This document shows positions 9,663 through 18,059 of a DNA stretch of 18,232 bases, piece after piece (the stretch's first letter is position 1; each line of letters begins with the position of its first letter). The DNA is from a virus (lineage: Duplodnaviria; Heunggongvirae; Uroviricota; Caudoviricetes), in IMG/VR virus record IMGVR_UViG_2778261667_000006, positions 1 to 18,232 of that record; one strand, 5' to 3'. A model generated the notes under the pieces. The model did not search any database. It saw nothing but the letters and a program-made list of their open reading frames with translations, and had not been told where the DNA came from. The position numbers were made by a program, and so were the translations under genes.

Positions 9663-9708
9663 CGTAGCTCTTCAGGCCGTGTCACATAAGGCTTTAACCA
9701 CATTTCAG

Positions 9709-9812
9709 ATGTGTGCTGGAGGGAAAACGATGTGTGCTGACGGGAAATATATGTGTGCTGGAGGGTTTTACATGTGTGCTGGCGGGATGTAGGATGTGTG
9801 CTGACGGGAAAA
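9709..9812 (+). repeat. incC-type iteron array: five direct 19-bp RepA-binding repeats (ATGTGTGCTGGAGGGAAAA and variants) at about 21-bp spacing
   Basis: Repeats start at 9709, 9730, 9751, 9772 and 9794. The sequence matches the P1 plasmid iteron consensus as I remember it; five repeats upstream of repA is the P1 incC arrangement. Confidence 0.85.
9766..9794 (+). promoter_or_regulatory. Putative sigma70 promoter of repA embedded in the iterons (-35 TTTACA, 17-bp spacer, -10 TAGGAT); expected to be autorepressed by RepA
   Basis: Hexamers read from the sequence; they overlap iterons 3-5. Autorepression through promoter-iteron overlap is established for P1 repA; its application here is inference. 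Confidence 0.35.
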
Positions 9813-9829: not shown

Positions 9830-9867
9830 GTCGTAAACTTTATTCACAACATGACGGTAACTTATTG

Positions 9868-10728
9868 ATGGATAAGTCATTTATCTCTGATATTCTTTAT
9901 GCTGACATTGAAAGCAAGGCAAAAGAATTAACAGTTAATTCGAACAATACTGTTCAACCTGTCGCGCTTATGCGGCTTGGTGTTTTCGTCCCTAAACCAA
10001 CTAAAAAACAGGGTGAAAACAACGAGATAGATGCATCATCTGTTTTTTCTAAACTGGAAATCGCTCAAGCAGAAGGCTACGACAATATCAAGATTACTGG
10101 TCCTCGTTTGGACATGGATACTGATTTCAAAGTCTGGATTGGGGTAATCTACTCATTTAGCAAATATGGCTTATCATCGAACACTATTCGTCTTTCTTTT
10201 CAAGAGTTTGCAAAGGCGTGCGGATTTCCATCTAAGCGACTTGATGGGAAATTAAGAAACACGATCCACGATTCTTTAGGTCGGTTACGTAACAAAGGCA
10301 TCTCATTCAAAAGAGGTAAAAGTGCTCGTGGAAGCTATAATACTGGCTTGCTTAAAACGGGATATTTTGACTTTGAAACAGATGTCGTTGAACTGGAGGC
10401 TGATTCCAAGTTATGGGAAATCTTCCAGCTAGACTATCGGGTGCTTCTACAGCAACACGCACTTCGTGCTTTACCTAAAAAAGAGGCAGCCCAGGCCATA
10501 TATACCTTTATAGAAAGTCTCCCGGCACGGCCAATACCTATTTCATTTGCCAGAATACGTGAAAGATTAGCCTTGATGTCATCGGTAAGTGAGCAAAACA
10601 GAACGATAAAAAAAGCTATAGACCAGTTAAAAACAATAGGTTATCTCGATTGCACTATTGAAAAGCAAGGACGAGAAAACTTTATTATCGTTCACTCTCG
10701 GAATCCGAAACTTAAACCAACAGATTAA
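9868..10728 (+). CDS. repA: Plasmid replication initiator RepA (P1/IncY iteron-binding type), 286 aa
   Basis: Frame flanked upstream by five and downstream by seven copies of the same 19-bp iteron. The ORF track starts at TTG 9865; I prefer the adjacent ATG at 9868. The only plus-strand gene in the window. Confidence 0.88.
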   Translation: MDKSFISDILYADIESKAKELTVNSNNTVQPVALMRLGVFVPKPTKKQGENNEIDASSVFSKLEIAQAEGYDNIKITGPRLDMDTDFKVWIGVIYSFSKYGLSSNTIRLSFQEFAKACGFPSKRLDGKLRNTIHDSLGRLRNKGISFKRGKSARGSYNTGLLKTGYFDFETDVVELEADSKLWEIFQLDYRVLLQQHALRALPKKEAAQAIYTFIESLPARPIPISFARIRERLALMSSVSEQNRTIKKAIDQLKTIGYLDCTIEKQGRENFIIVHSRNPKLKPTD

Positions 10729-10950
10729 ATGTGTGCTGAAGGGATAGATTCATACCTGGATGTGTGGTGGAGGGAATTTCGGGGGATTGCTTACTTCAGA
10801 TGTGTGCTGGTGGGATAAATGACGCTCTTTACATGCAAAATTCCCCTCCAGCACACATGTTTCCATTATCATTCCCTCTACAACACATCTTGAGCAATGG
10901 GGTTGCCCGGCAGCACACATTTAACGTAACCCCTTCCCTCCAGCACACAT
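10729..10950. repeat. incA-type iteron array downstream of repA: three direct and four inverted copies of the 19-bp iteron (copy-number control locus)
   Basis: Direct copies at 10729-10747, 10760-10778 and 10800-10818; inverted copies (TTCCCTCCAGCACACAT type) at 10841-10858, 10871-10888, 10903-10920 and 10933-10950, spaced about 30 bp apart. Confidence 0.8.
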
Positions 10951-10962
10951 AATTAAAGCGTT

Positions 10963-11670
10963 TCAGAATTTGATCACTCCACTAACCGCTCCCTTTAACG
11001 CACTTGTAGCCATGCCAGCGGCACCGTTGACCAAAGCAGAAACACCTGAGCCAGCGGATGTGTATTTCTGGAAAGTGATTGGGTATGACAAGAACTCTGA
11101 CACCTGATCACGTGAGCGGGTTATTTCCCCAAGTTGCGTAGGAAATACGCGCATTTCTTCTTCCAGTTCTTTTCCGCCGTCCTGAGTTACCCGATAGAGA
11201 CGGATTTTCATCAGATATTCAGGAGGTAGGTTTATTGTACCGTCCGGATTTGTTACGCGAGAACGACGCTCTTTGAACCAGTTCATGATCTTGCCGTCTT
11301 CGGTATCTCTTACGGTCATAGTGACAGGTCCGGCGCTAACGTAGGTTGGTTTACTGAACTCCACGCTGCCTATCACCTTGCTTTCTGTCTCAATGTTCCC
11401 ACTGCTGTAGGTGATATCCTTCACGAACATATCGAAGCCGTTCAGACCATCCACTTCCACGGTCCACTGCCACCCCTGGGCGTAACGGATACGCATAGCG
11501 GCAGCAACAATATTTTTCCCGTAGGCAATATCGCTACTGTAATTCCCGCTTACCCCGCCGCCTGATATGGCTTTATCAAGAATGTCGCTAATGAGGTTGC
11601 TGGTGAATGATTTCGTGTTAAATGACAATGCGGTGGTCAACGTTCTACCAACGCTGCTGAAAATACTCAC
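10963..11670 (-). CDS. Hypothetical structural protein, 235 aa
   Basis: ORF-track frame; GTG start with GGAGG 7 nt upstream; its stop is 12 bp from the last incA iteron. No motif recognised. Confidence 0.55.
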   Translation of the reverse strand: MSIFSSVGRTLTTALSFNTKSFTSNLISDILDKAISGGGVSGNYSSDIAYGKNIVAAAMRIRYAQGWQWTVEVDGLNGFDMFVKDITYSSGNIETESKVIGSVEFSKPTYVSAGPVTMTVRDTEDGKIMNWFKERRSRVTNPDGTINLPPEYLMKIRLYRVTQDGGKELEEEMRVFPTQLGEITRSRDQVSEFLSYPITFQKYTSAGSGVSALVNGAAGMATSALKGAVSGVIKF

Positions 11671-11685
11671 TCTGCGCCTCCAGCG

Positions 11686-12237
11686 TTAAAAAATGGTAGC
11701 CCCCGGAATAATTGCCCGATTTGAAGACATTTTTTCCTCAATCTCCTGCACGCGGGCATATAGCGTTGCTTCATCGGGTAGATCGGAGTAGTCAAATTTC
11801 CCGTCGATGGACGCTCGGCGCTGCCGTGCGACATTTCTGACATTGATAAGCGCCTCCAGATATTCCTCCAGCATTCCAATGATTGCAGGAGGCACTTGCC
11901 ATTGATCCAGCTTTCTGTCGCGTAGATTAACCAGATACAGCATCCGAAAAGGCCAGCTTTCCGAACCTGTTAGCTCTAATTCAATAAAGCCGGATAATTC
12001 ATCCGAATATACCAACAGGCCATTGTTGTCGGTAACATGAACCAGAGAGAGATAATCTTCTGGCAATGGGATTGCCGTGCCACTAGCTTTTTCAAGTTTT
12101 AATGTTTTCACTACCCCTGCCCTGTCCTGATACGTTGTTAGTGCTTTGATCAGGAAGGCTTTCAGCGTTTCTTCTTCACGCACAAGCAGTGGGTTAAATC
12201 GTGCTTTAACGCTTTCTAATAATTCGGTTGGTGTCAT
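11686..12237 (-). CDS. Hypothetical structural protein, 183 aa
   Basis: ORF-track frame; ends 15 nt before the 235-aa gene start; weak SD. The overlapping 70-aa ORF at 11667-11879 is treated as spurious. Confidence 0.55.
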   Translation of the reverse strand: MTPTELLESVKARFNPLLVREEETLKAFLIKALTTYQDRAGVVKTLKLEKASGTAIPLPEDYLSLVHVTDNNGLLVYSDELSGFIELELTGSESWPFRMLYLVNLRDRKLDQWQVPPAIIGMLEEYLEALINVRNVARQRRASIDGKFDYSDLPDEATLYARVQEIEEKMSSNRAIIPGATIF

Positions 12238-12249
12238 CGTGTCTACAAC

Positions 12250-12284
12250 TCAAAAACAAAGATGTTCCCGCCACAAGGGCGGGA
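12250..12284 (-). terminator. Intrinsic-terminator-like hairpin (7-bp stem TCCCGCC/GGCGGGA, 5-nt loop) followed on the minus strand by a T-rich tract (ACATCTTTGTTTTTG)
   Basis: Inverted repeat at 12266-12284 and downstream T-run read from the sequence; sits just after the stop of the 163-aa tube-like gene. The T-tract is interrupted, so it may be a partial terminator. Confidence 0.4.
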
Positions 12285-12291
12285 GCGGGGA

Positions 12292-12783
12292 TTATTCTGC
12301 CCAGTTGTAAACAATACGCAGGGAAGGCTTAACGACTGCCGTTACGTCTTCTGAGGAGAAGTCGACGGCGTCGGAATATACTTTGCAGTGAGAATATGTG
12401 CGGATCAGACCTTTATGGTTGCCGCTATTGGATTCAGCCGCTGCCTGTAAGGTAATTTCCTGATATTCTTTGCCGTATACCATTTGTTTTACAGCGGCGA
12501 GAACTGCGCCCTCGATGGTTTCTGCACATGTGACCTGAAATTCACCAGAGTTACGTAGTGGTCCGTGCTGGTTGAATTTCATGCCGCCAGGAGCGTAATC
12601 TTCCACATCTTCGCGTGTCATTTCTGGTAACTGAGCAGTACGAACCAGTACAGACAGATGCTCATAACCTTTAATGGTCATCCAATATTCAGAGCCAATA
12701 AGTTTTTCGCCCGCAGCCAGGTTTTTATTAAACCGGGATTTCAGAAAGGCCATATCGGCTTTTGTATTTGCAAAACCGGACAT
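12292..12783 (-). CDS. Tail tube-like protein, 163 aa (T4 gp19-like candidate)
   Basis: ATG with AGGAG 6 nt upstream. Same length as T4 gp19 and a similar C-terminal ending (...VYNWAE versus gp19 ...DYWE as I recall it); followed by a terminator-like hairpin, as is common after abundant tube genes. The resemblance is remembered, not computed. Confidence 0.45.
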   Translation of the reverse strand: MSGFANTKADMAFLKSRFNKNLAAGEKLIGSEYWMTIKGYEHLSVLVRTAQLPEMTREDVEDYAPGGMKFNQHGPLRNSGEFQVTCAETIEGAVLAAVKQMVYGKEYQEITLQAAAESNSGNHKGLIRTYSHCKVYSDAVDFSSEDVTAVVKPSLRIVYNWAE

Positions 12784-12791
12784 AAATACTC

Positions 12792-13382
12792 CTACACAAA
12801 AACAGATGAGATATTGCTACGGTTAATAGAGGTGTTTCCGCTGCATTGCAGGGTTACCGTGTTATGAGTGAAATAGCCTTCCGGTGTGCGCGGGGCGTCC
12901 AGTTGGTAACTCACGCTTTTGATAACAACGTCGGTAAGGGCTATGTTTCTACCTATGTTTAACGTTACCGTTTCCGGGCGGCGACCGAATGGCGCTACAT
13001 TGTTCAATTCCGGCGATTCCATCTTCAGCAATGCTGTAATGGCTGCGTTCACTTCGAGTTGTGCGTTCACTGTCGCCATGAAATCAATAACCAGATTAAA
13101 TTCAGGCGGTTGCTGACCTTCCCAAACAAGCATTGAGTTAAAGAGGGTCTTTGTTGTTACGCTGGTTGCGGTCTGAAGTGTATCCGCAAGAGAGCCAGCC
13201 GCTGCGCTAATACCGCCAAGCAACCCACCGACTGACTGGTTTTCAAATGGTGATTGCCACATTGATGACAGTTCTGCGGTAGAGCCTTCACCGATATAAC
13301 CGACGACCATATCCTCAGTGGAGAGGATATAAACCTTCATTAATGGACTTATTCCGTCAGGCATTATCGCGCCGCAAATCAA
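12792..13382 (-). CDS. Hypothetical tail protein, 196 aa (possible second tube-family or tube-associated protein)
   Basis: ORF-track frame; start is TTG at 13382 with a strong GGGAGG 8 nt upstream and an in-frame TAG immediately before; the internal ATGs lack an SD. Confidence 0.5.
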   Translation of the reverse strand: MICGAIMPDGISPLMKVYILSTEDMVVGYIGEGSTAELSSMWQSPFENQSVGGLLGGISAAAGSLADTLQTATSVTTKTLFNSMLVWEGQQPPEFNLVIDFMATVNAQLEVNAAITALLKMESPELNNVAPFGRRPETVTLNIGRNIALTDVVIKSVSYQLDAPRTPEGYFTHNTVTLQCSGNTSINRSNISSVFV

Positions 13383-13431
13383 ACGCTATTCCTCCCAGAT
13401 AGAGGCCACCTTTGCAGGCGGCCTGTGTCAC

Positions 13432-14166
13432 TTACAAGCCGCGTTTTTTGCGAATTCGCATTGATTTTTTGCGGTTGATATTCGCTACGGATGTATGCGC
13501 TTTACGGCGTGCTTTTTTCAGCGCCTGTTTTTGCAGTGACGTCATGCGGCGAGGGCGCGGGCGCTTGCGGATAATGGTAACCTTGCCATCACGAACAACT
13601 TTTTTACGTACCGCTTCCAGCATTGCGCTGTCACCACCAGCAACGGTGTAAATGGCAATAGCCGCTTCCAGCATGTCGCCGTCGCTTTCGGAAAGTGCGT
13701 CATATACACGTTCAGCAGCAGAGTCATCTTCATCGTCGATCATTTCTGTTACGTCGTCCTGATCCGCGCCAAGAGCAACAGCGGCATCAGCAAGGGCTGC
13801 GAGAGCATCGTTATAAGCATCGATTTGTTCATCGGTAAAATCGGTGTCTTCATCGATATCAGCCAGGCCAGCCATAGTGATTGCTAATGCATCAAATGAG
13901 TCAGCCTCCGGATCACCATCTTCAACCCAACCTGCAAGCATGGAAGCCGCCAGGCTGCGCATATCTCCTTGTGCGCGAGACTCAACCGCTTCCATCATCG
14001 CGGTTTCAATATCTTTTTTGGGCTTTGCTTGAGTGTTAGCTCCTTTCTGTTCGGCGCTTTCCAGCATGGCTTTATCATCATTTCCCGGCGTGGATTTATC
14101 ACCGCTTTCAAAGCAGCCAGAACCAAAAATCGCACGCATAAAAGGATCAGCAGTATAATTTTTCAT
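13432..14166 (-). CDS. Strongly acidic protein with a poly-basic C-terminal tail, about 244 aa; function unknown
   Basis: ORF-track frame 13432-14190, but the first ATG lies inside a hairpin; I prefer the ATG at 14166 with GGAGAGAGG upstream. Residues about 80-200 are Asp/Glu-rich; the last about 45 residues are Lys/Arg-rich (KRPRPRRMTSLQKQALKKARRKAHTSVANINRKKSMRIRKKRGL). Confidence 0.6.
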   Translation of the reverse strand: MKNYTADPFMRAIFGSGCFESGDKSTPGNDDKAMLESAEQKGANTQAKPKKDIETAMMEAVESRAQGDMRSLAASMLAGWVEDGDPEADSFDALAITMAGLADIDEDTDFTDEQIDAYNDALAALADAAVALGADQDDVTEMIDDEDDSAAERVYDALSESDGDMLEAAIAIYTVAGGDSAMLEAVRKKVVRDGKVTIIRKRPRPRRMTSLQKQALKKARRKAHTSVANINRKKSMRIRKKRGL

Positions 14167-14181
14167 TTTCAAACCTCTCTC

Positions 14182-14201
14182 CCCCCGCATTTCTGCGGGG
14201 G
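14182..14201 (-). other. Intercistronic stem-loop (8-bp stem CCCCCGCA/TGCGGGGG; GAAA tetraloop on the mRNA strand), no U-tract
   Basis: Perfect inverted repeat between the 552-aa gene stop (14209) and the SD of the acidic protein gene. Confidence 0.4.
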
Positions 14202-14208
14202 TAATAAA

Positions 14209-15867
14209 TCAGCGCATCAGAATTGGCTTACCGACGATGCGGCGAGCTGTACCGGTTGGGCATACAGACCAGGACACTTCCCACAGATCGATGTCTTTCT
14301 GGACAACCTGGACGACATACGGTTCTTCTCCCTGAGATTGGTCACGTGGAGTCACCAGCGCACCAGACGCAACGAAGCGGTCAAGCAATTCGGTCATTGC
14401 CTTCATTAGCGTTTCTTTAGTAATGCCATCTGGTTCATGCTTAATTGTCTGAGCAACCTCATAGAAATTGCGGGCAATAGCATTCATCAGAGACGAAACA
14501 TGCTGGAATCGCAGATAGTTGTTTTTACTGAAAGTTGTTAAAGAGTCGTCGATGTAGACAGAACCATCAGCAGCAACAGAAACTGGATTAATGCGCGCGG
14601 TAACGAACGCTTCACGATCAACTGCACCGATATTTGGAATTCGGGCAATATTCTGTCGGTCAATAGTCGCGCGAGATATGCCAGCCGGAGCGTAATGCCA
14701 ACCGCCAACATCAGAAACCAGCGCAACACCTTTCGCTTTTGCGACAAATGCATCGCAACTGATGCCGTAAACAACATTCATACCAGTGAAGGTATCCCGG
14801 CAGGAAAATGGGAAGTAGTAACGGCTTGGTTGATGTGAGCCGCCAAAACTATGGCTTTTGGCTTCTGAAATGGCATTTTCTGGTGTCTGGTTGCCCTTCA
14901 GGTCGTAGAACATGTCTACGCGAACGTCTTCAGCCAGATTTTTGAGCGCGGCTAAGGCGGATGCGTCATAGCAGCCCAGTGACAGCAATGCGGTGTAATT
15001 AACCTCTGAAGCTTCGAGGACTTTTAATGCTTCCAGATAGTCTTCAGTGTCAATGGTGGACAGATCGCCATCAGTGCCGCCTTCAAAAGCTACATCCTCA
15101 AACATGAGTTGAGCAGCAGATGCTTCCGCATTATCTGCCAGGACGGCACCAATGCGAGTGGACTGGCTTTCAAGCAGTGTCGGAATCCATGCTGGTTGGC
15201 CCATGTCGTTAGTGCCTTCTGGATTGAAGGACACCTGGTGGCTTTCCAGCACCTCAACGGACCCATCGGTTTGTTTTTCTTTCAGCGTCAGCGTAAAGAG
15301 TTCGCTTTCTTCATCATCGCGAGTTAGTGATAACATGCGATTTTGAGATGCATCACCATCTTTGATGAAGAATACGGCCATCCCATCATCGTTAATCTGG
15401 GGTGTCTCTTTTGGAGTGAAGGTGACTGATTTCGTTGTTGCAGTTGAAGCAATACCAACGCTCAATGTGTCACCTGGATTTACTGTGGTTTCAGTAGGCT
15501 CCACGGTAAGTGTTTTGTTTGCCTTAGCCGCTTTTGCTCTGCCCGCAACGGAAACAGAAATACCTGGCACCTTCATGTCTTTAGCGCAAACACGAACGAC
15601 ATAACCAGAGCCGCCTTTTACTGCACGCTCCACGTGGCGGTATGGTTCAAATGCTGATCCCAGGCGAGGGTGAATAGGTGAACCTAATACGCTTTGATAA
15701 GTCGTATCGTCAACTTTCAGCACTTTACCCGGTGCGCCACGACGCGATATTACAAGTCCAGCAAAGACGGATGCGCCACCGCTGGTATTGGTGAGGGTAG
15801 CGTCAGCATTTACCGACATAACAGCGACGCCAGCCGCCTGCCCTACCGAAAAACTAATCTTATTCAT
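14209..15867 (-). CDS. Tail sheath protein candidate, 552 aa
   Basis: ORF-track frame; ATG with GAGGA upstream. The N-terminal pattern (...SVFAGLVISRRGAPGKVLKVDDTTYQSVLGSP) resembles the sheath N-terminal pattern I recall from T4 gp18-type proteins; size and position upstream of tube-like genes fit. Confidence 0.5.
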   Translation of the reverse strand: MNKISFSVGQAAGVAVMSVNADATLTNTSGGASVFAGLVISRRGAPGKVLKVDDTTYQSVLGSPIHPRLGSAFEPYRHVERAVKGGSGYVVRVCAKDMKVPGISVSVAGRAKAAKANKTLTVEPTETTVNPGDTLSVGIASTATTKSVTFTPKETPQINDDGMAVFFIKDGDASQNRMLSLTRDDEESELFTLTLKEKQTDGSVEVLESHQVSFNPEGTNDMGQPAWIPTLLESQSTRIGAVLADNAEASAAQLMFEDVAFEGGTDGDLSTIDTEDYLEALKVLEASEVNYTALLSLGCYDASALAALKNLAEDVRVDMFYDLKGNQTPENAISEAKSHSFGGSHQPSRYYFPFSCRDTFTGMNVVYGISCDAFVAKAKGVALVSDVGGWHYAPAGISRATIDRQNIARIPNIGAVDREAFVTARINPVSVAADGSVYIDDSLTTFSKNNYLRFQHVSSLMNAIARNFYEVAQTIKHEPDGITKETLMKAMTELLDRFVASGALVTPRDQSQGEEPYVVQVVQKDIDLWEVSWSVCPTGTARRIVGKPILMR

Positions 15868-15905
15868 GCTGTGTTCTTATCCTCTAAAGCGAGAGAACTA
15901 GGCAA

Positions 15906-15930
15906 GGCTACCCACGGTTAATGGGCAGCC
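15906..15930 (-). other. Imperfect intercistronic hairpin (GGCTaCCCA / TGGGcAGCC, 7-nt loop)
   Basis: Inverted repeat with one mismatch, between the Ig-like gene stop and the sheath gene start. Confidence 0.25.
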
Positions 15931-15935
15931 TCTGA

Positions 15936-16214
15936 TCAGGATTCGCTTACCGTGAAATTGTCGCCTACGGTTACTTCTTTCGTAGTCGGTTCAACACTGA
16001 CGGCGCTTACGCTTTTAGGTGCCTCCCTAACAGTGACTGTGCACTGTGCGGTTTTATTGCCGTCATTGGTTTTGATTGTCAGCACTGCCTGCCCGGCCTT
16101 AAGAGCGGTACATGTAGTGCCATCAACCTGGACAATTTCAGGGTGATCGGACTCAACAGTGAAAGATTTGTCTGTTGCGTCAGATGGCGAGATAGTTACT
16201 TGAATGTTTGCCAT
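15936..16214 (-). CDS. Ig-like (Big_2-type) domain protein, 92 aa; probable capsid decoration or accessory protein
   Basis: ATG with AGGAG 7 nt upstream. The sequence VTISPSD...FTVESD...TALKAGQAVLTIKTNDGNKTAQCTVTV has the strand pattern of a bacterial Ig-like domain; the C-terminus (SVSAVSVEPTTKEVTVGDNFTV) looks like the first strand of a second, truncated copy. Confidence 0.6.
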   Translation of the reverse strand: MANIQVTISPSDATDKSFTVESDHPEIVQVDGTTCTALKAGQAVLTIKTNDGNKTAQCTVTVREAPKSVSAVSVEPTTKEVTVGDNFTVSES

Positions 16215-16227
16215 TCTTTTCTCCTGA

Positions 16228-16254
16228 ACGCCCCTTATTCAGGGGCGTGTTTTT
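16228..16254 (+). terminator. Plus-strand intrinsic terminator (8-bp stem ACGCCCCT/AGGGGCGT, 5-nt loop, then GTTTTT) inside a minus-strand operon
   Basis: Perfect inverted repeat followed by T5 on the plus strand only. On the minus strand the same hairpin sits directly upstream of the SD of the Ig-like gene, with no U-tract. Confidence 0.45.
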
Positions 16255-16361
16255 GCCTTACTTCTGCTTTGTTTTTTTCTGTGCCTTTGAAGTGTTCGCG
16301 GCGATAGTTTCACCTTCATCTACGTCAAGTGACGTTGGTGATACCGACACGTTCGCCACCA

Positions 16362-18059
16362 TCACTTTTTTTCGTTAACCTTGCCTGACAGAATGTCGAT
16401 AGCACCTTCTTTGGCACGAGTCAGACGCAGGCGGGTGAAGTAGTTTTCACCGTTGCGAGGATGTACTTCGTTGATGGCACTGCCCCAGAGAGTGGTACGG
16501 TTAACGAGAGACGGATTGGTTTCATGCACGTAAGGGATTGCAGGGACTGCATCACCAGCAATCAGACCGGCTTTACCAATACCTTCGCCACGCCCATAGA
16601 AGAAGATGTCATCCAGCCCGAAGTCATATCCCTGTGCCTGGAATTGCTCACATACAGGTTGCGGCACTTCGTAAATACGAATCGTGCCAAACAAGGTGCC
16701 GATGTACTGCACATACGGCGACTGAACATAACCCGGTGCGATCTGGAAGTGCTGTGGGGGCAGAGAGCGCAGGAAGTTCGCGGCGTCACCACCAGCAAAG
16801 CCGCCTCGAATACCCGTTGTCAGCGTGCGATTTGCCATTTCCTGAGACAGAGCGTTTACTACGTGACGCAGGAGGCCGACCCAGGACTCATAGTTTTGAG
16901 CTTCCGGCAGAGCCACATCAAATTCACGGCCATAAACGGTATGGAATACTAGGGTGCGCAGCCGCATGATGTCGGTTTCATGGGAGATCCAGTTACGCAT
17001 TGCGGAGAACTGAAGTGCTGCCAATTCAAGGCCGTGTTCGCGGCTTAAATCGGAAGCGGACATTACTGTGTGTTCGGAAGCAATTACGTACTGAGACGGG
17101 CGCACTTCATACTTGCGCATAGCCTGGTTGATTACCGGAATCAGGCTTGGATTGCGCTCGATGTTAATTTCGACCTGAACCGCAATTTCAGTCCCTTCTG
17201 CTGGCGCTTGAGTGAAGGTAATGTCGATGACACCAGTGTCATAAGCGACTTTTGCGGTAGCGGAGAAAGCATTGCCTTTGCTGTCTTTATCATTGAAATA
17301 AAGGTTGCCATCGCCGTCGTCAACCTTGGACGGTTTGCGGTTGATCAGCAGTTTGTTATAACCAGCGCGCAGCGGGCAGGATTGGCCCTCAAAATTTTGG
17401 ATGTCGAACTGGAAAGTTTTGGTGCTGCCATCCCCTTTAGTGGACAGGGTATACAGACGCTTCATTTGAGAATAAACGCCTGCGGACTGCATATTCAGCT
17501 CGTCACCTTGCTTGAAGGTGCCGAATTTTGTGCCTGCTACGTTGACCAGTTCATAGATATTTGACTCGTCACGATCACAAGGAACAAAAGTACAGGCATC
17601 ACTGGTAGCAGCGCCCAGAGAGGCAGGCAGAATTAGTGCAGCATATTGAGCAACTTTCATTACGCCGTCAGAGTTACGCATTGATTGCGCGACAGACTCA
17701 AACATTGCCTTACCAGTGCCTTCGTGTGTATCACTGGCACATTCAGTCATCAGGCGTTCAAGTGCCATGTGTGCGTTTGCCAGGATGTCGCTTGCTGGGT
17801 AGTGCCCATGCTGACGCTTGTACTCATGCAGAGACATAGCCCACCCACCAGCGATCTGGCGTGCAACCTCTGGATTTACGCCTTCGAACATAGGCACTTT
17901 CTGGATTGCTTTATCCAGGTTCTCCATCATTGCTGCCTGATCAGCAATCATATTGCCCGCAGCATCGGTGGTCGGATCGACGGTCATAGCCATGACGCTT
18001 GCCGCCCGATTCATAATCTCGCGCTCGCGATCACGAGCTGGCTGAATGTTTTTATTCAC
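16362..18059 (-). CDS. Major capsid protein candidate, 565 aa
   Basis: ORF-track frame; GTG start at 18059 with AGGG upstream and an in-frame TAG 4 codons upstream; preceded by an AT-rich non-coding region (18060-18232). Assignment is by size (about 62 kDa, comparable to what I recall for the P1 gene 23 precursor) and by position before decoration and sheath genes; no motif verified. Confidence 0.5.
   Translation of the reverse strand: MNKNIQPARDREREIMNRAASVMAMTVDPTTDAAGNMIADQAAMMENLDKAIQKVPMFEGVNPEVARQIAGGWAMSLHEYKRQHGHYPASDILANAHMALERLMTECASDTHEGTGKAMFESVAQSMRNSDGVMKVAQYAALILPASLGAATSDACTFVPCDRDESNIYELVNVAGTKFGTFKQGDELNMQSAGVYSQMKRLYTLSTKGDGSTKTFQFDIQNFEGQSCPLRAGYNKLLINRKPSKVDDGDGNLYFNDKDSKGNAFSATAKVAYDTGVIDITFTQAPAEGTEIAVQVEINIERNPSLIPVINQAMRKYEVRPSQYVIASEHTVMSASDLSREHGLELAALQFSAMRNWISHETDIMRLRTLVFHTVYGREFDVALPEAQNYESWVGLLRHVVNALSQEMANRTLTTGIRGGFAGGDAANFLRSLPPQHFQIAPGYVQSPYVQYIGTLFGTIRIYEVPQPVCEQFQAQGYDFGLDDIFFYGRGEGIGKAGLIAGDAVPAIPYVHETNPSLVNRTTLWGSAINEVHPRNGENYFTRLRLTRAKEGAIDILSGKVNEKK
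16365..16372 (-). other. A-AAA-AAG slippery heptamer within an A7 run, ending at the capsid stop codon (candidate -1 frameshift or transcriptional slippage site)
   Basis: Minus strand reads GTT AAC GAA AAA AAG TGA. The -1 frame continues for 35 codons (VMVANVSVSPTSLDVDEGETIAANTSKAQKKTKQK) to a TAA at 16260-16258. Confidence 0.3.

What the first reader, a model, noticed from the sequence alone, without database searches (positions are those of the whole stretch)
13432..14190. Highly acidic protein with a Lys/Arg-rich C-terminal tail, encoded between sheath-like and tube-like genes
Residues about 80-200 are dominated by Asp/Glu and Ala (for example DGDPEADSFDALAITMAGLADIDEDTDFTDEQIDAYNDALAALADAAVALGADQDDVTEMIDDEDDSAAE), followed by about 45 residues rich in Lys/Arg. 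A gene between sheath and tube is not part of the standard contractile-tail order, and it has its own hairpin and strong SD. This composition fits a DNA-mimic or anti-restriction type protein that could be packaged into virions, or alternatively a scaffolding or assembly chaperone. I cannot tell which from sequence alone.
Basis: inference. Interest (0 to 1): 0.6.

Follow-up and report, generated by a model that had tools for sequence, protein, structure and literature searches.

The report
Protease-cut head-assembly protein, mislabelled as tail
This acidic protein with a basic tail is the phage P1 "gene 21" protein, long labelled baseplate or tail tube, but its sequence marks it as a target of the head-maturation protease, so it is probably the internal head scaffold or core protein that P1-like phages were thought to lack.

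Summary
The window is a P1-like phage-plasmid, 93.7% identical to phage D6. The ORF, which most likely starts at 14166 (244 aa), is the orthologue of P1 gene 21, annotated "baseplate or tail tube".

The protein has four parts:
- a disordered leader;
- an acidic helical body (net charge about -30);
- a flexible linker;
- a 60-residue basic module (+24).

The main new result is a motif. M-[LFM]-E|[SA] is the maturation cleavage site mapped experimentally in the P1 capsid protein (AMLE|S). In the whole D6 proteome it occurs in only four proteins: capsid protein, prohead protease Pro, DarA and gp21.

In gp21 the motif sits in the two low-confidence, probably disordered regions. One copy lies exactly at the acid/basic junction. 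Across about 70 related genomes the cleavage residue switches between Glu and Asp at least twice, always together in capsid protein and gp21.

gp21 is therefore very probably a Pro substrate inside the prohead. It resembles a T4 gp22-type scaffold or core protein, not a tail part and not an Ocr/ArdA DNA mimic.

No known fold or family matches beyond PHROG 1053, which has no assigned function. The old tail-defect genetics remains unreconciled; polarity on pmgG/bplB is a plausible cause.

The parts
13432..14166 (-). Coding sequence of the P1 gene 21 orthologue (244 aa; D6 orf47). It belongs to PHROG 1053, which has no assigned function.
   Evidence: (E 4e-83, full length)
14182..14201 (-). GC-rich 8-bp hairpin between the sheath stop codon and gene 21. 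It has no U-tract. The spurious upstream ATG at 14190 lies inside it.
   Evidence: centroid -18.3 kcal/mol, z -2.8
14174..14182 (-). Shine-Dalgarno sequence GGAGAGAGG, seven bases upstream of the ATG at 14166
   Evidence: read from the sequence
14059..14166 (-). Leader, residues 1-36. It varies in sequence and length between homologues. Most of it (residues 1-7 and 15-36) has pLDDT below 50, with a short predicted helix at residues 8-14. It ends at predicted cleavage site 1.
14056..14070 (-). Predicted prohead-protease site 1, AMLE|S (E36|S37). E36 is invariant and S37 nearly invariant in the family. The five residues are identical to the mapped P1 gp23 site AMLE|S.
13987..14001 (-). Possible site 2, AMME|A (E59|A60), at the start of the first long helix
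13642..14016 (-). Acidic alpha-helical body, residues 51-175: six predicted helices, pLDDT mostly 62-90 (10-residue block means), net charge about -30
13663..13677 (-). Possible site 3, DMLE|A (E167|A168). It is present in the window and in some close homologues (for example P0001, P0007, P0013, P0019), but D6 has no match here.
13612..13626 (-). Predicted junction site AMLE|A (E184|A185) in the low-confidence linker 175-184. E184 is invariant. The basic tail begins one residue after this Glu in 79 of the 110 homologues that carry the strict motif.
13435..13614 (-). Basic C-terminal module, residues 185-244 (7.1 kDa, net +24): beta-hairpin 187-200 plus a long helix 210-241 (10-residue block mean pLDDT 86-94). 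It is the most conserved part of the family and is duplicated in some distant members.
13403..13424 (-). Weak hairpin just downstream of the gene 21 stop codon, ahead of pmgG
   Evidence: z -1.55, not significant
17694..17711 (-). Capsid protein (gene 23) maturation site KAMFE|S (E121|S122). It aligns with the experimentally mapped P1 site E120|S121 and is the reference for the motif found in gene 21.
   Evidence: PMC9024508

Best explanation
The gene encodes a protein that works inside the prohead and is cut by the phage's prohead protease (Pro). It is made late, from the capsid/sheath operon, and is incorporated into the assembling prohead.

Pro is predicted to cut after Glu36 and after Glu184, and possibly after Glu59 and Glu167. 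The products would be:
- a short leader;
- an acidic helical body of about 15 kDa;
- a 7-kDa, strongly basic C-terminal module.

The most likely role is a scaffold or core protein. In function it would be like T4 gp22/gp67/gp68, and in logic like the herpesvirus scaffold, whose shell-binding C-terminus is cut off by the maturation protease. In this model the basic module anchors the protein to the shell interior or to incoming DNA, and cleavage at the junction releases the acidic body so that it can leave and make room for DNA.

Shown here: the architecture; that the motif is exclusive to known Pro substrates; its position in the low-confidence, probably disordered regions; and its covariation with the capsid protein's cleavage site.

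Inferred: actual cleavage, location in the prohead, scaffold function and the fate of the fragments.
For: 1. The P1 gp23 maturation site mapped by Edman sequencing is E120|S121 (PMC9024508), and the sequence there is NKAMLE|SVAA. The window's gp21 has KAMLE|SA at residues 32-38 and SAMLE|AV at 180-186.

2. In the complete D6 proteome (108 proteins, 26,676 aa) M[LFM]E[SA] occurs 9 times against 1.1 expected. All nine lie in Pro (4), DarA (1), gp23 (1) and gp21 (3). In the window it occurs only in gp21 (4) and gp23 (1) among 16 genes.

3. In P1 the looser motif points to DarA E68|A69. The cryo-EM model lacks DarA residues 1-69, and DarA is known to be cut by Pro (PMC12810830).

4. E36 and E184 are 2 of only 19 invariant columns in 34 diverse homologues. 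The motif is tandemly duplicated in several of them.

5. The acid/basic boundary falls one residue after the motif's Glu in 79 of the 110 homologues that carry the strict motif. Both main sites lie in AF2 segments with pLDDT below 50.

6. Covariation. In a distant clade the residue aligned with P1 E120 is Asp in 57 of 57 capsid proteins (x[LF]D, followed by Ser in nearly all). In the listed junction alignments, every gp21 homologue of that clade has [LFMY]D|[AS] at the junction. Sister genomes L100 and L101 (gp21 59% and capsid protein 57% identical) differ by E to D at two capsid sites and at the motif sites that align between their gp21 proteins, including the junction. The capsid tree needs at least two independent switches, and no discordant genome was seen.

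7. In the Asp clade the motif density per 100 aa is 1.02 in gp21, 0.89 in Pro, 0.44 in capsid protein and 0.42 in DarA. It is 0.09-0.18 in sheath, tube and other tail proteins, and 0.15 in the background.

8. P1 gp21 was not detected in virions by LC-MS/MS (PMC9024508). It is not among the proteins built into a near-complete P1 cryo-EM model (PMC12810830). Both papers state that no separate scaffold is known for P1.

9. T4 gp22 scaffold is similar in size (269 aa) and acidity (pI 4.6) and carries IFE|S, VFE|A and LFE|S sites.
Against: 1. Classical amber mutants assigned to P1 gene 21 were classed as tail or baseplate defective. That is the origin of the label "baseplate or tail tube", which I saw in the database records and in PMC10695390. 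The details are from my own recollection of Walker & Walker 1983 and Lobocka 2004, because neither paper could be read here.

2. The gene lies between sheath and tube-like genes, and its adjacency to pmgG is conserved.

3. The 120-residue N-terminal domain of gp23, together with DarA, has been proposed to supply the scaffolding function, so a separate scaffold may not be needed (PMC12810830).

4. There is no sequence or fold similarity to any known scaffold.

5. Cleavage of gp21 has never been shown. The Pro specificity used here rests on one mapped site plus inference.

6. In P1 itself the motif is looser (LME|S, ILE|A, LTE|A), and the looser pattern also hits some non-head proteins: 18 observed against 9.5 expected.
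Confidence: 0.65

Rival explanations
1. The protein is mainly the precursor of a packaged DNA-binding peptide. Pro releases the 60-residue basic module inside the head, where it stays bound to the genome (charge neutralisation or condensation) and perhaps enters the cell with the DNA. The acidic body only masks the basic module until assembly. This overlaps with the best explanation, and both could be true.
For: - The basic module is the most conserved part of the family.
- It occurs twice in P0203, P0261 and a jumbo-phage ORF. In P0261 the first copy directly follows MILE|S, and in P0203 the first copy is followed by a GME|S motif.
- The junction cut falls exactly at its N-terminus.
- Trypsin would leave only two peptides of 6 or more residues from it, so the LC-MS/MS negative result does not exclude its presence in virions.
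Against: - No extra internal density was assigned to it in P1 cryo-EM (PMC12810830).
- A basic C-terminus is also how P22-type and herpesvirus scaffolds bind the shell (my own knowledge).
- At plausible copy numbers it would neutralise only a small share of the DNA charge (inference).
Confidence: 0.2
2. It is what the classical annotation says: a factor for baseplate or tail-tube assembly. For example, it could be an acidic chaperone for the basic tape-measure protein Sit or for tube initiation, absent from the finished virion. The shared motif would then be a coincidence or serve another purpose.
For: - The gene sits between sheath (22) and tube-like genes (pmgG, bplB) in nearly all relatives.
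- The classical label is "baseplate or tail tube" (PMC10695390).
- Absence from virions would also fit a chaperone (PMC9024508, PMC12810830).
- Sit is basic, pI 9.5.
Against: - It does not explain why a motif otherwise confined to Pro, capsid protein and DarA occurs 3-4 times in gp21, nor why it switches E to D together with the capsid site.
- The tail proteins lack the motif.
- AF2 shows a helical bundle, not a tube fold.
- There is no match to known tail chaperones.
- PmgB, directly upstream of sit, is the proposed tape-measure chaperone (PMC9024508).
- pmgG and bplB lie downstream with no late promoter of their own annotated in P1. A nonsense mutation in 21 could therefore give a tail-less phenotype through polarity. 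CRISPRi lethality is confounded in the same way (PMC10695390).
Confidence: 0.12
3. It is an Ocr/ArdA-type DNA mimic: an acidic decoy that blocks type I restriction enzymes and is delivered from the virion.
For: A strongly acidic surface (net about -30 over about 130 residues). P1-like phages do package anti-restriction proteins, the Dar system (PMC9024508).
Against: - No profile hit to Ocr or ArdA families and no fold match.
- The gene is in a late structural operon and is conserved in every relative, together with the capsid and sheath genes.
- The classical essential-gene status is unlike the accessory anti-restriction genes.
- If the acidic body is cut free by Pro, a scaffold-like body would be expected to leave the head.
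Confidence: 0.03

Closest known systems
Phage T4 prohead core proteins: gp22 major scaffold, gp67, gp68 and the internal proteins, all processed by the T4 gp21 protease
   Same: - Made late and acidic. The body is predicted helical here; T4 gp22 being helical is my own knowledge.
- Similar size: T4 gp22 is 269 aa, P1 gp21 271 aa and the window protein 244 aa.
- Several protease sites of the same type, hydrophobic-hydrophobic-Glu followed by a small residue: T4 gp22 has IFE|S, VFE|A and LFE|S.
- The intact protein is absent from the virion.
- In T4 the sheath and tube genes also lie next to the head genes.
   Different: - No detectable homology (hhalign probability 0.5%).
- T4 gp22 has no strongly basic C-terminal module.
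- The T4 peptides that stay in the head are acidic.
- In P1-like phages the capsid protein also has a 120-residue N-terminal propeptide that may contribute scaffolding.
Herpesvirus scaffold (pre-VP22a/UL26.5) and phage P22 gp8 scaffold
   Same: A scaffold body joined to a C-terminal shell-binding element. In herpesviruses the maturation protease cuts just upstream of that element and so releases the scaffold. In P22 the C-terminal helix-turn-helix is basic and binds coat protein electrostatically (both from my own knowledge). The junction site at E184|A185 sits in the equivalent position.
   Different: No sequence or fold similarity. The basic module here is far more charged (24 K/R in 60 residues). 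P22 scaffold is recycled rather than cleaved.
Adenovirus core protein precursors pVII and pre-Mu
   Same: Basic DNA-condensing polypeptides made as precursors and trimmed inside the capsid by the viral maturation protease (my own knowledge). This parallels the rival or novel reading for the basic module.
   Different: A different virus lineage and protease. The propeptides there are short, not a 150-residue acidic domain. DNA binding by this module is untested.
P1 gp21 family (PHROG 1053), annotated in databases as 'baseplate or tail tube', 'tail tube protein' or 'putative baseplate protein'
   Same: True orthologue: a full-length match at E 4e-83, 95% identity to D6 orf47 and about 44% to P1 gp21, and the same position in the operon.
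   Different: The functional label is not supported. The predicted fold is a helical bundle, not a tube fold. The protein is missing from the P1 virion proteome and cryo-EM models (PMC9024508, PMC12810830).
Ocr / ArdA DNA-mimic anti-restriction proteins
   Same: High density of Asp and Glu.
   Different: No family or fold match. A late structural operon. A basic module and protease motifs that these mimics lack.

Membership tests
P1 gene 21 / PHROG 1053 family | Full-length sequence similarity to family members | tested here: met
   PHROG 1053 at E 4.1e-83 over residues 1-244. 168 homologues found. 501 representative clusters at E <= 1e-3.
P1 gene 21 / PHROG 1053 family | Position directly downstream of the sheath gene and upstream of pmgG in a P1-like late operon | tested here: met
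   Window and D6, P1, and most of the roughly 90 related loci.
Substrates of the P1-type prohead protease Pro (prohead-internal proteins) | Carries the protease recognition motif found at the mapped capsid-protein cleavage site | tested here: met
   AMLE|S is identical to the P1 gp23 site. The motif is confined to Pro, DarA, gp23 and gp21 in D6 and to gp21 and gp23 in the window.
Substrates of the P1-type prohead protease Pro (prohead-internal proteins) | The motif is conserved, accessible, and changes together with the protease's other substrates | tested here: met
   E36 and E184 are invariant. pLDDT is below 50 at both sites. The Glu/Asp state agrees with the capsid protein in every genome examined, with at least two independent switches.
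Substrates of the P1-type prohead protease Pro (prohead-internal proteins) | Demonstrated cleavage by the protease and presence in proheads | not testable with these tools
   Needs biochemistry. No published data were found.
Phage head scaffolding / core proteins (functional class, e.g. T4 gp22) | Acidic, largely alpha-helical, and absent as an intact protein from mature virions | tested here: inconclusive
   The acidic helical body is shown. Absence from virions comes from the literature on the P1 orthologue (PMC9024508, PMC12810830), and the tryptic-peptide analysis shows that this negative result is weak.
Phage head scaffolding / core proteins (functional class, e.g. T4 gp22) | Homology to a characterised scaffold protein | tested here: not met
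Phage head scaffolding / core proteins (functional class, e.g. T4 gp22) | Required for correct prohead assembly | not testable with these tools
   Needs a non-polar deletion and electron microscopy. The classical data point to a tail defect instead.
Tail tube / baseplate structural proteins (the current database label) | Tube-type beta-sandwich fold, or a place in the virion tail structure | tested here: not met
   AF2 gives a helical bundle plus one hairpin and a long helix. The tube-like proteins of this phage are bplB, pmgG and tub. gp21 is not in the P1 tail or baseplate models (PMC12810830; 10.1101/2025.07.21.665459).
Tail assembly chaperones (lambda G/GT type) | Gene between the tube and tape-measure genes, and family or fold similarity. 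The usual programmed frameshift was not examined here. | tested here: not met
   The gene lies between the sheath gene and the tube-linker gene pmgG. pmgB, not 21, precedes the tape-measure gene sit. No profile or fold hit.
Ocr / ArdA DNA mimics | Profile or fold similarity to Ocr or ArdA | tested here: not met
Ocr / ArdA DNA mimics | Inhibition of type I restriction | not testable with these tools
   Needs plating assays.

The most novel reading that the evidence does not exclude
The conserved 60-residue C-terminal module may be a protamine-like genome-binding peptide. It would be made as the tail of an acidic, DNA-like pro-domain that keeps it inert in the cytoplasm. The prohead protease would free it inside the capsid, and it would stay on the packaged DNA and possibly be delivered with it.

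The family has at least 501 sequence clusters, and the module also occurs as tandem copies and in a jumbo-phage contig. This would therefore define a widespread, unrecognised class of capsid-internal DNA-condensing peptides in tailed phages, comparable to adenovirus pVII and Mu.
Probability: 0.25. Interest if true: 0.75.

Novelty: new variant of a known kind. Interest (0 to 1): 0.6.

Why it matters
P1 is one of the founding model phages, and its relatives are common phage-plasmids in Enterobacterales that carry resistance genes. Two recent structural and proteomic studies state that P1 has no separate scaffolding protein, and gene 21 is still annotated as a tail part.

If the reading here is right:
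- A conserved gene with no place in the virion models gets a role.
- P1 head assembly would look more like that of T4, with a protease-processed internal core.
- The Pro cleavage rule ([ML]-[LFM]-E|[SA], or the Asp version in other clades) becomes a usable predictor of head-internal and packaged proteins in this group. For example, it predicts the DarA cut at E68|A69.
- Cargo could be designed for P1-based delivery particles using that rule.
- The annotations "tail tube protein" for this family, and "tail fiber protein" for Pro in the D6 RefSeq record and in PHROG 1801, would need correcting.

Tried and rejected
- **T4 gp22.** The profile comparison showed no homology.
- **Shared N-terminal capsid-targeting sequence.** I compared the N-termini of gp21, DarA, DarB and the other Dar proteins, and nothing convincing emerged.
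- **Terminator.** The upstream hairpin lacks a U-tract.
- **Papers I could not read.** Lobocka 2004 (PMC523184), Walker & Walker 1983 (PMC256520) and Piya 2017 (PMC6011833) are not held. The basis for assigning the classical amber mutants to this ORF therefore could not be checked.
- **Gonzales 2022 supplement.** It has no entry for gp21, and gene 21 does not seem to be among the 29 knock-outs, though I did not read the full list.
- **Essentiality screens.** The CRISPRi-ART paper and the phage transposon-mutagenesis preprint hold no P1 data.
- **Locus searches.** The search for related loci failed with the broad alignment A2, and found nothing for P0215 or P0261.
- **Jumbo-phage contig L104.** The context of its homologue was uninformative.
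Full report
**What the window is.**
Megablast places bases 11000-16500 at 93.7% identity, over their full length, to Escherichia phage D6, a P1-related plasmid prophage. The D6 annotation and PHROG scans give the minus-strand gene order:
- 23, major capsid protein, 16362-18059
- a 92-aa Ig-like ORF
- 22, sheath, 14209-15867
- the target gene
- pmgG, tube-linking protein
- bplB, tail tube
- pmgC
- tub

A plus-strand repA follows, and then pmgB, sit (tape measure), pmgA, bplA, 16 and R. The target is D6 orf47, noted as "similar to P1 gene 21, putative baseplate protein". It is about 44% identical to P1 gp21 over 74% of its length. P1 gp21 itself is annotated "baseplate or tail tube".

**Check of the observation.**
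- The ORF at 13432-14190 exists, but its first ATG lies inside an 8-bp GC hairpin at 14182-14201.
- The start at 14166 has a GGAGAGAGG ribosome-binding site. It matches the D6 annotation and the N-termini of the closest homologues. The protein is therefore 244 aa.
- Residues 61-190 have a net charge of -29, and residues 191-244 have +21.
- None of 20,000 shuffles reached the observed charge segregation.
- The same layout holds in 112 full-length homologues: a tail of +23 on average and -34 for the rest.
- The hairpin has no U-tract and is not a canonical terminator.

**Anatomy.**
An AlphaFold2 model built on a 34-sequence alignment has mean pLDDT 72. It shows:
- a leader that is mostly low-confidence (pLDDT below 50 at 1-7 and 15-49; short helix at 8-14);
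- a six-helix acidic body, residues 51-175;
- a low-confidence linker, residues 175-184;
- a beta-hairpin, residues 187-200;
- a long helix, residues 210-241, with 10-residue block mean pLDDT of 86-94.

The C-terminal module is the most conserved part of the family.

Nothing known matches the protein:
- Pfam, NCBIfam and PADLOC give no hit.
- PHROGs gives only family 1053, with no assigned function.
- A PDB profile search gives none.
- Foldseek against PDB and BFVD gives nothing significant.

So there is no support for membership of Ocr/ArdA, of tail chaperones, or of any characterised scaffold family.

**The key finding: a shared cleavage motif.**
Gonzales et al. mapped the maturation cut of the P1 capsid protein between E120 and S121 (PMC9024508). 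The sequence there is NKAMLE|SVAA. The window's capsid protein has KAMFE|S at the aligned place.

The window's gp21 carries four copies of the motif:

| Site | Sequence | Cut |
|---|---|---|
| 1 | KAMLE\|SA | E36\|S37 |
| 2 | AMME\|A | E59\|A60 |
| 3 | DMLE\|A | E167\|A168 |
| 4 (junction) | SAMLE\|AV | E184\|A185 |

I assembled the complete D6 proteome, 108 proteins and 26,676 residues. M[LFM]E[SA] occurs nine times there, against 1.1 expected from shuffles. All nine are in four proteins:
- the prohead protease Pro, four copies in its C-terminal half;
- DarA, one copy at E65|S66;
- gp23, one copy at the maturation site;
- gp21, three copies.

DarA is known to lose about 9 kDa to Pro. In P1 the looser motif predicts E68|A69, which agrees with the cryo-EM model lacking residues 1-69 (PMC12810830).

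In P1 itself the motif is more relaxed. Even so, 12 of the 18 matches fall in head proteins: Prt, Pro (4), DdrB, DarA, gp21 (3) and gp23 (2). The remaining six fit the chance expectation of 9.5.

**Position and conservation of the sites.**
- E36 and E184 are two of only 19 invariant columns among 34 diverse homologues. E36 is an island of conservation in an otherwise variable leader.
- In 79 of the 110 homologues that carry the strict motif, the maximally basic suffix begins exactly one residue after the motif's Glu.
- Both main sites lie in segments with pLDDT below 50.
- Several homologues carry tandem copies of the motif, for example ALMESAMFEA and AMLEAVAMFEA.
- Distant members contain two basic modules. 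In P0261 the first directly follows MILE|S, and in P0203 the first is followed by GME|S (P0203, P0261).

**Covariation.**
An exhaustive HMM search shows a large family: 501 clusters at E <= 1e-3. I retrieved about 90 genomic loci for distant members.

In a large distant clade the module order is pacB-pro-25-23-22-21-pmgG-pmgB-bplB-upfC-hdf-darA-darB. In that clade:
- the capsid residue aligned to P1 E120 is Asp in 57 of 57 genomes, in the form x[LF]D, followed by Ser in nearly all;
- every gp21 junction listed for the clade has [LFMY]D|[AS], and most have x[LF]D|[SAG] at the leader site.

Pro and DarA of that clade carry LLD|S-type motifs at the corresponding places. The motif density per 100 aa is 1.02 in gp21, 0.89 in Pro, 0.44 in capsid protein and 0.42 in DarA. 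It is 0.09-0.18 in the sheath, tube and other tail proteins, and 0.15 in the background.

Two sister genomes make the point most clearly. L100 and L101 are 59% identical in gp21 and 57% in the capsid protein.

| Protein | L100 | L101 |
|---|---|---|
| Capsid protein | PMFE\|A, KMLE\|S | PMFD\|S, KMLD\|S |
| gp21 | RMFEG, QFFES, VMLES | AMLDG, AFFDG, QMLDA, MMMDA |

A further lineage (L091-L094) is Asp-type in both proteins. Six enterobacterial lineages are Glu-type in both. A neighbour-joining tree of capsid proteins needs at least two independent Glu/Asp switches, and no discordant genome was seen.

The simplest reading is that one protease specificity reads the sites in capsid protein, Pro, DarA and gp21. 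By established knowledge, prohead proteases act on proteins enclosed in the prohead, so gp21 should be a prohead-internal protein.

**How it most likely works.**
The protein is made late with the capsid protein and is incorporated into the prohead. Pro then removes the leader and cuts at the acid/basic junction.

The acidic helical body behaves like a scaffold or core subunit that must leave before or during DNA packaging. The basic module is either the shell-binding anchor or a peptide that stays with the DNA. A shell-binding anchor would match the basic C-terminus of P22 scaffold and the C-terminal tail that the herpesvirus protease clips off.

T4 gp22 is a close functional analogue. It has 269 residues, pI 4.6, and IFE|S, VFE|A and LFE|S sites, but it is not detectably homologous.

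Cleavage, location in the prohead and the fate of the fragments are all inferred, not shown.

**Fit with published work on P1.**
- gp21 (ORF 56) is absent from the virion proteome, although its neighbours ORF 55 and ORF 57 were detected.
- It is not among the proteins built into near-complete cryo-EM models of head, connector, tail and baseplate. It is not mentioned in a separate tail-baseplate preprint.
- Both P1 papers state that no separate scaffold is known.
- The mass-spectrometry negative is weak. Trypsin would give only two usable peptides from the basic fragment, and peptides of 83 and 31 residues from the acidic body.

**The main conflict.**
The label "baseplate or tail tube" comes from classical amber mutants with tail defects. 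This is from my recollection, because the primary papers could not be read.

In P1, pmgG and the major tube gene bplB lie directly downstream in the same late operon, and no late promoter of their own is annotated. A nonsense mutation in 21 could therefore cause a tail-less phenotype through polarity.

The CRISPRi knock-down of 21 is lethal, but the authors themselves stress that such knock-downs are polar.

Until a non-polar deletion is examined, a tail-assembly role cannot be excluded. I give it about 0.12.

**Novelty.**
I found no paper linking P1 gp21 to the head, to Pro or to scaffolding. The kind of protein, a protease-processed prohead core or scaffold protein, is well known. The architecture is not described: an acidic body, a junction cleavage site and a highly conserved, strongly basic module. 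The family is unannotated or misannotated.

Noticed in passing
window 9704-9812, 10724-10818 and 10844-10950: The plasmid replication gene repA (9865-10728, plus strand) is flanked by iterons ATGTGTGCTGGnGGGA. There are five direct copies upstream, and three direct plus four inverted copies downstream. This is a P1-type oriR/incC-repA-incA layout, inserted between pmgB and tub in the tail gene block.
   Followed up: partly
window 15936-16214 (minus strand): A 92-aa ORF with a bacterial Ig-like (Big_2) domain (E 2e-7) lies between the capsid and sheath genes. It is present in D6 (orf49) but has no annotated counterpart in that interval of P1. It may be a capsid or tail decoration protein.
   Followed up: no
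L004 22494-23492 (D6 gene similar to P1 pro): The prohead protease homologue of D6 is labelled 'tail fiber protein' in RefSeq and in PHROG 1801. This looks like a propagated misannotation. Its C-terminal half carries four copies of the cleavage motif, which suggests self-processing.
   Followed up: partly
loci L008-L087 (IMG/VR), gene order pro > 25 > 23: In the distant clade, the homologue of P1 gene 25 ('tail stability', barely detected in virions) sits between the protease and capsid genes, the classical position of a scaffold gene. It is not enriched in the cleavage motif (0.10 per 100 aa).
   Followed up: partly
L006 (P1 OP279344) darA, residues 66-69: The motif predicts that P1 DarA is cut at LLE|A (E68|A69). 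This fits the cryo-EM model lacking residues 1-69. In the literature read here the exact DarA processing site is not given.
   Followed up: partly
L104 9533-10429 (205-kb IMG/VR contig), and proteins P0203 and P0261: The basic C-terminal module occurs in two copies per protein, separated by acidic stretches. One such protein is in a jumbo-phage-sized contig with no recognisable P1-like neighbours.
   Followed up: partly
L088 10001-12245: In one metagenomic contig the gene 21 homologue directly follows the terminase genes pacA and pacB, and is followed by an IS605-family TnpB gene. So linkage to the sheath gene can be broken.
   Followed up: no
loci with order hdf > darA > darB > ulx > 21 > pmgG (3 IMG/VR loci): In three loci gene 21 directly follows the operon for the capsid-internal Dar proteins instead of the capsid and sheath genes.
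   Followed up: no
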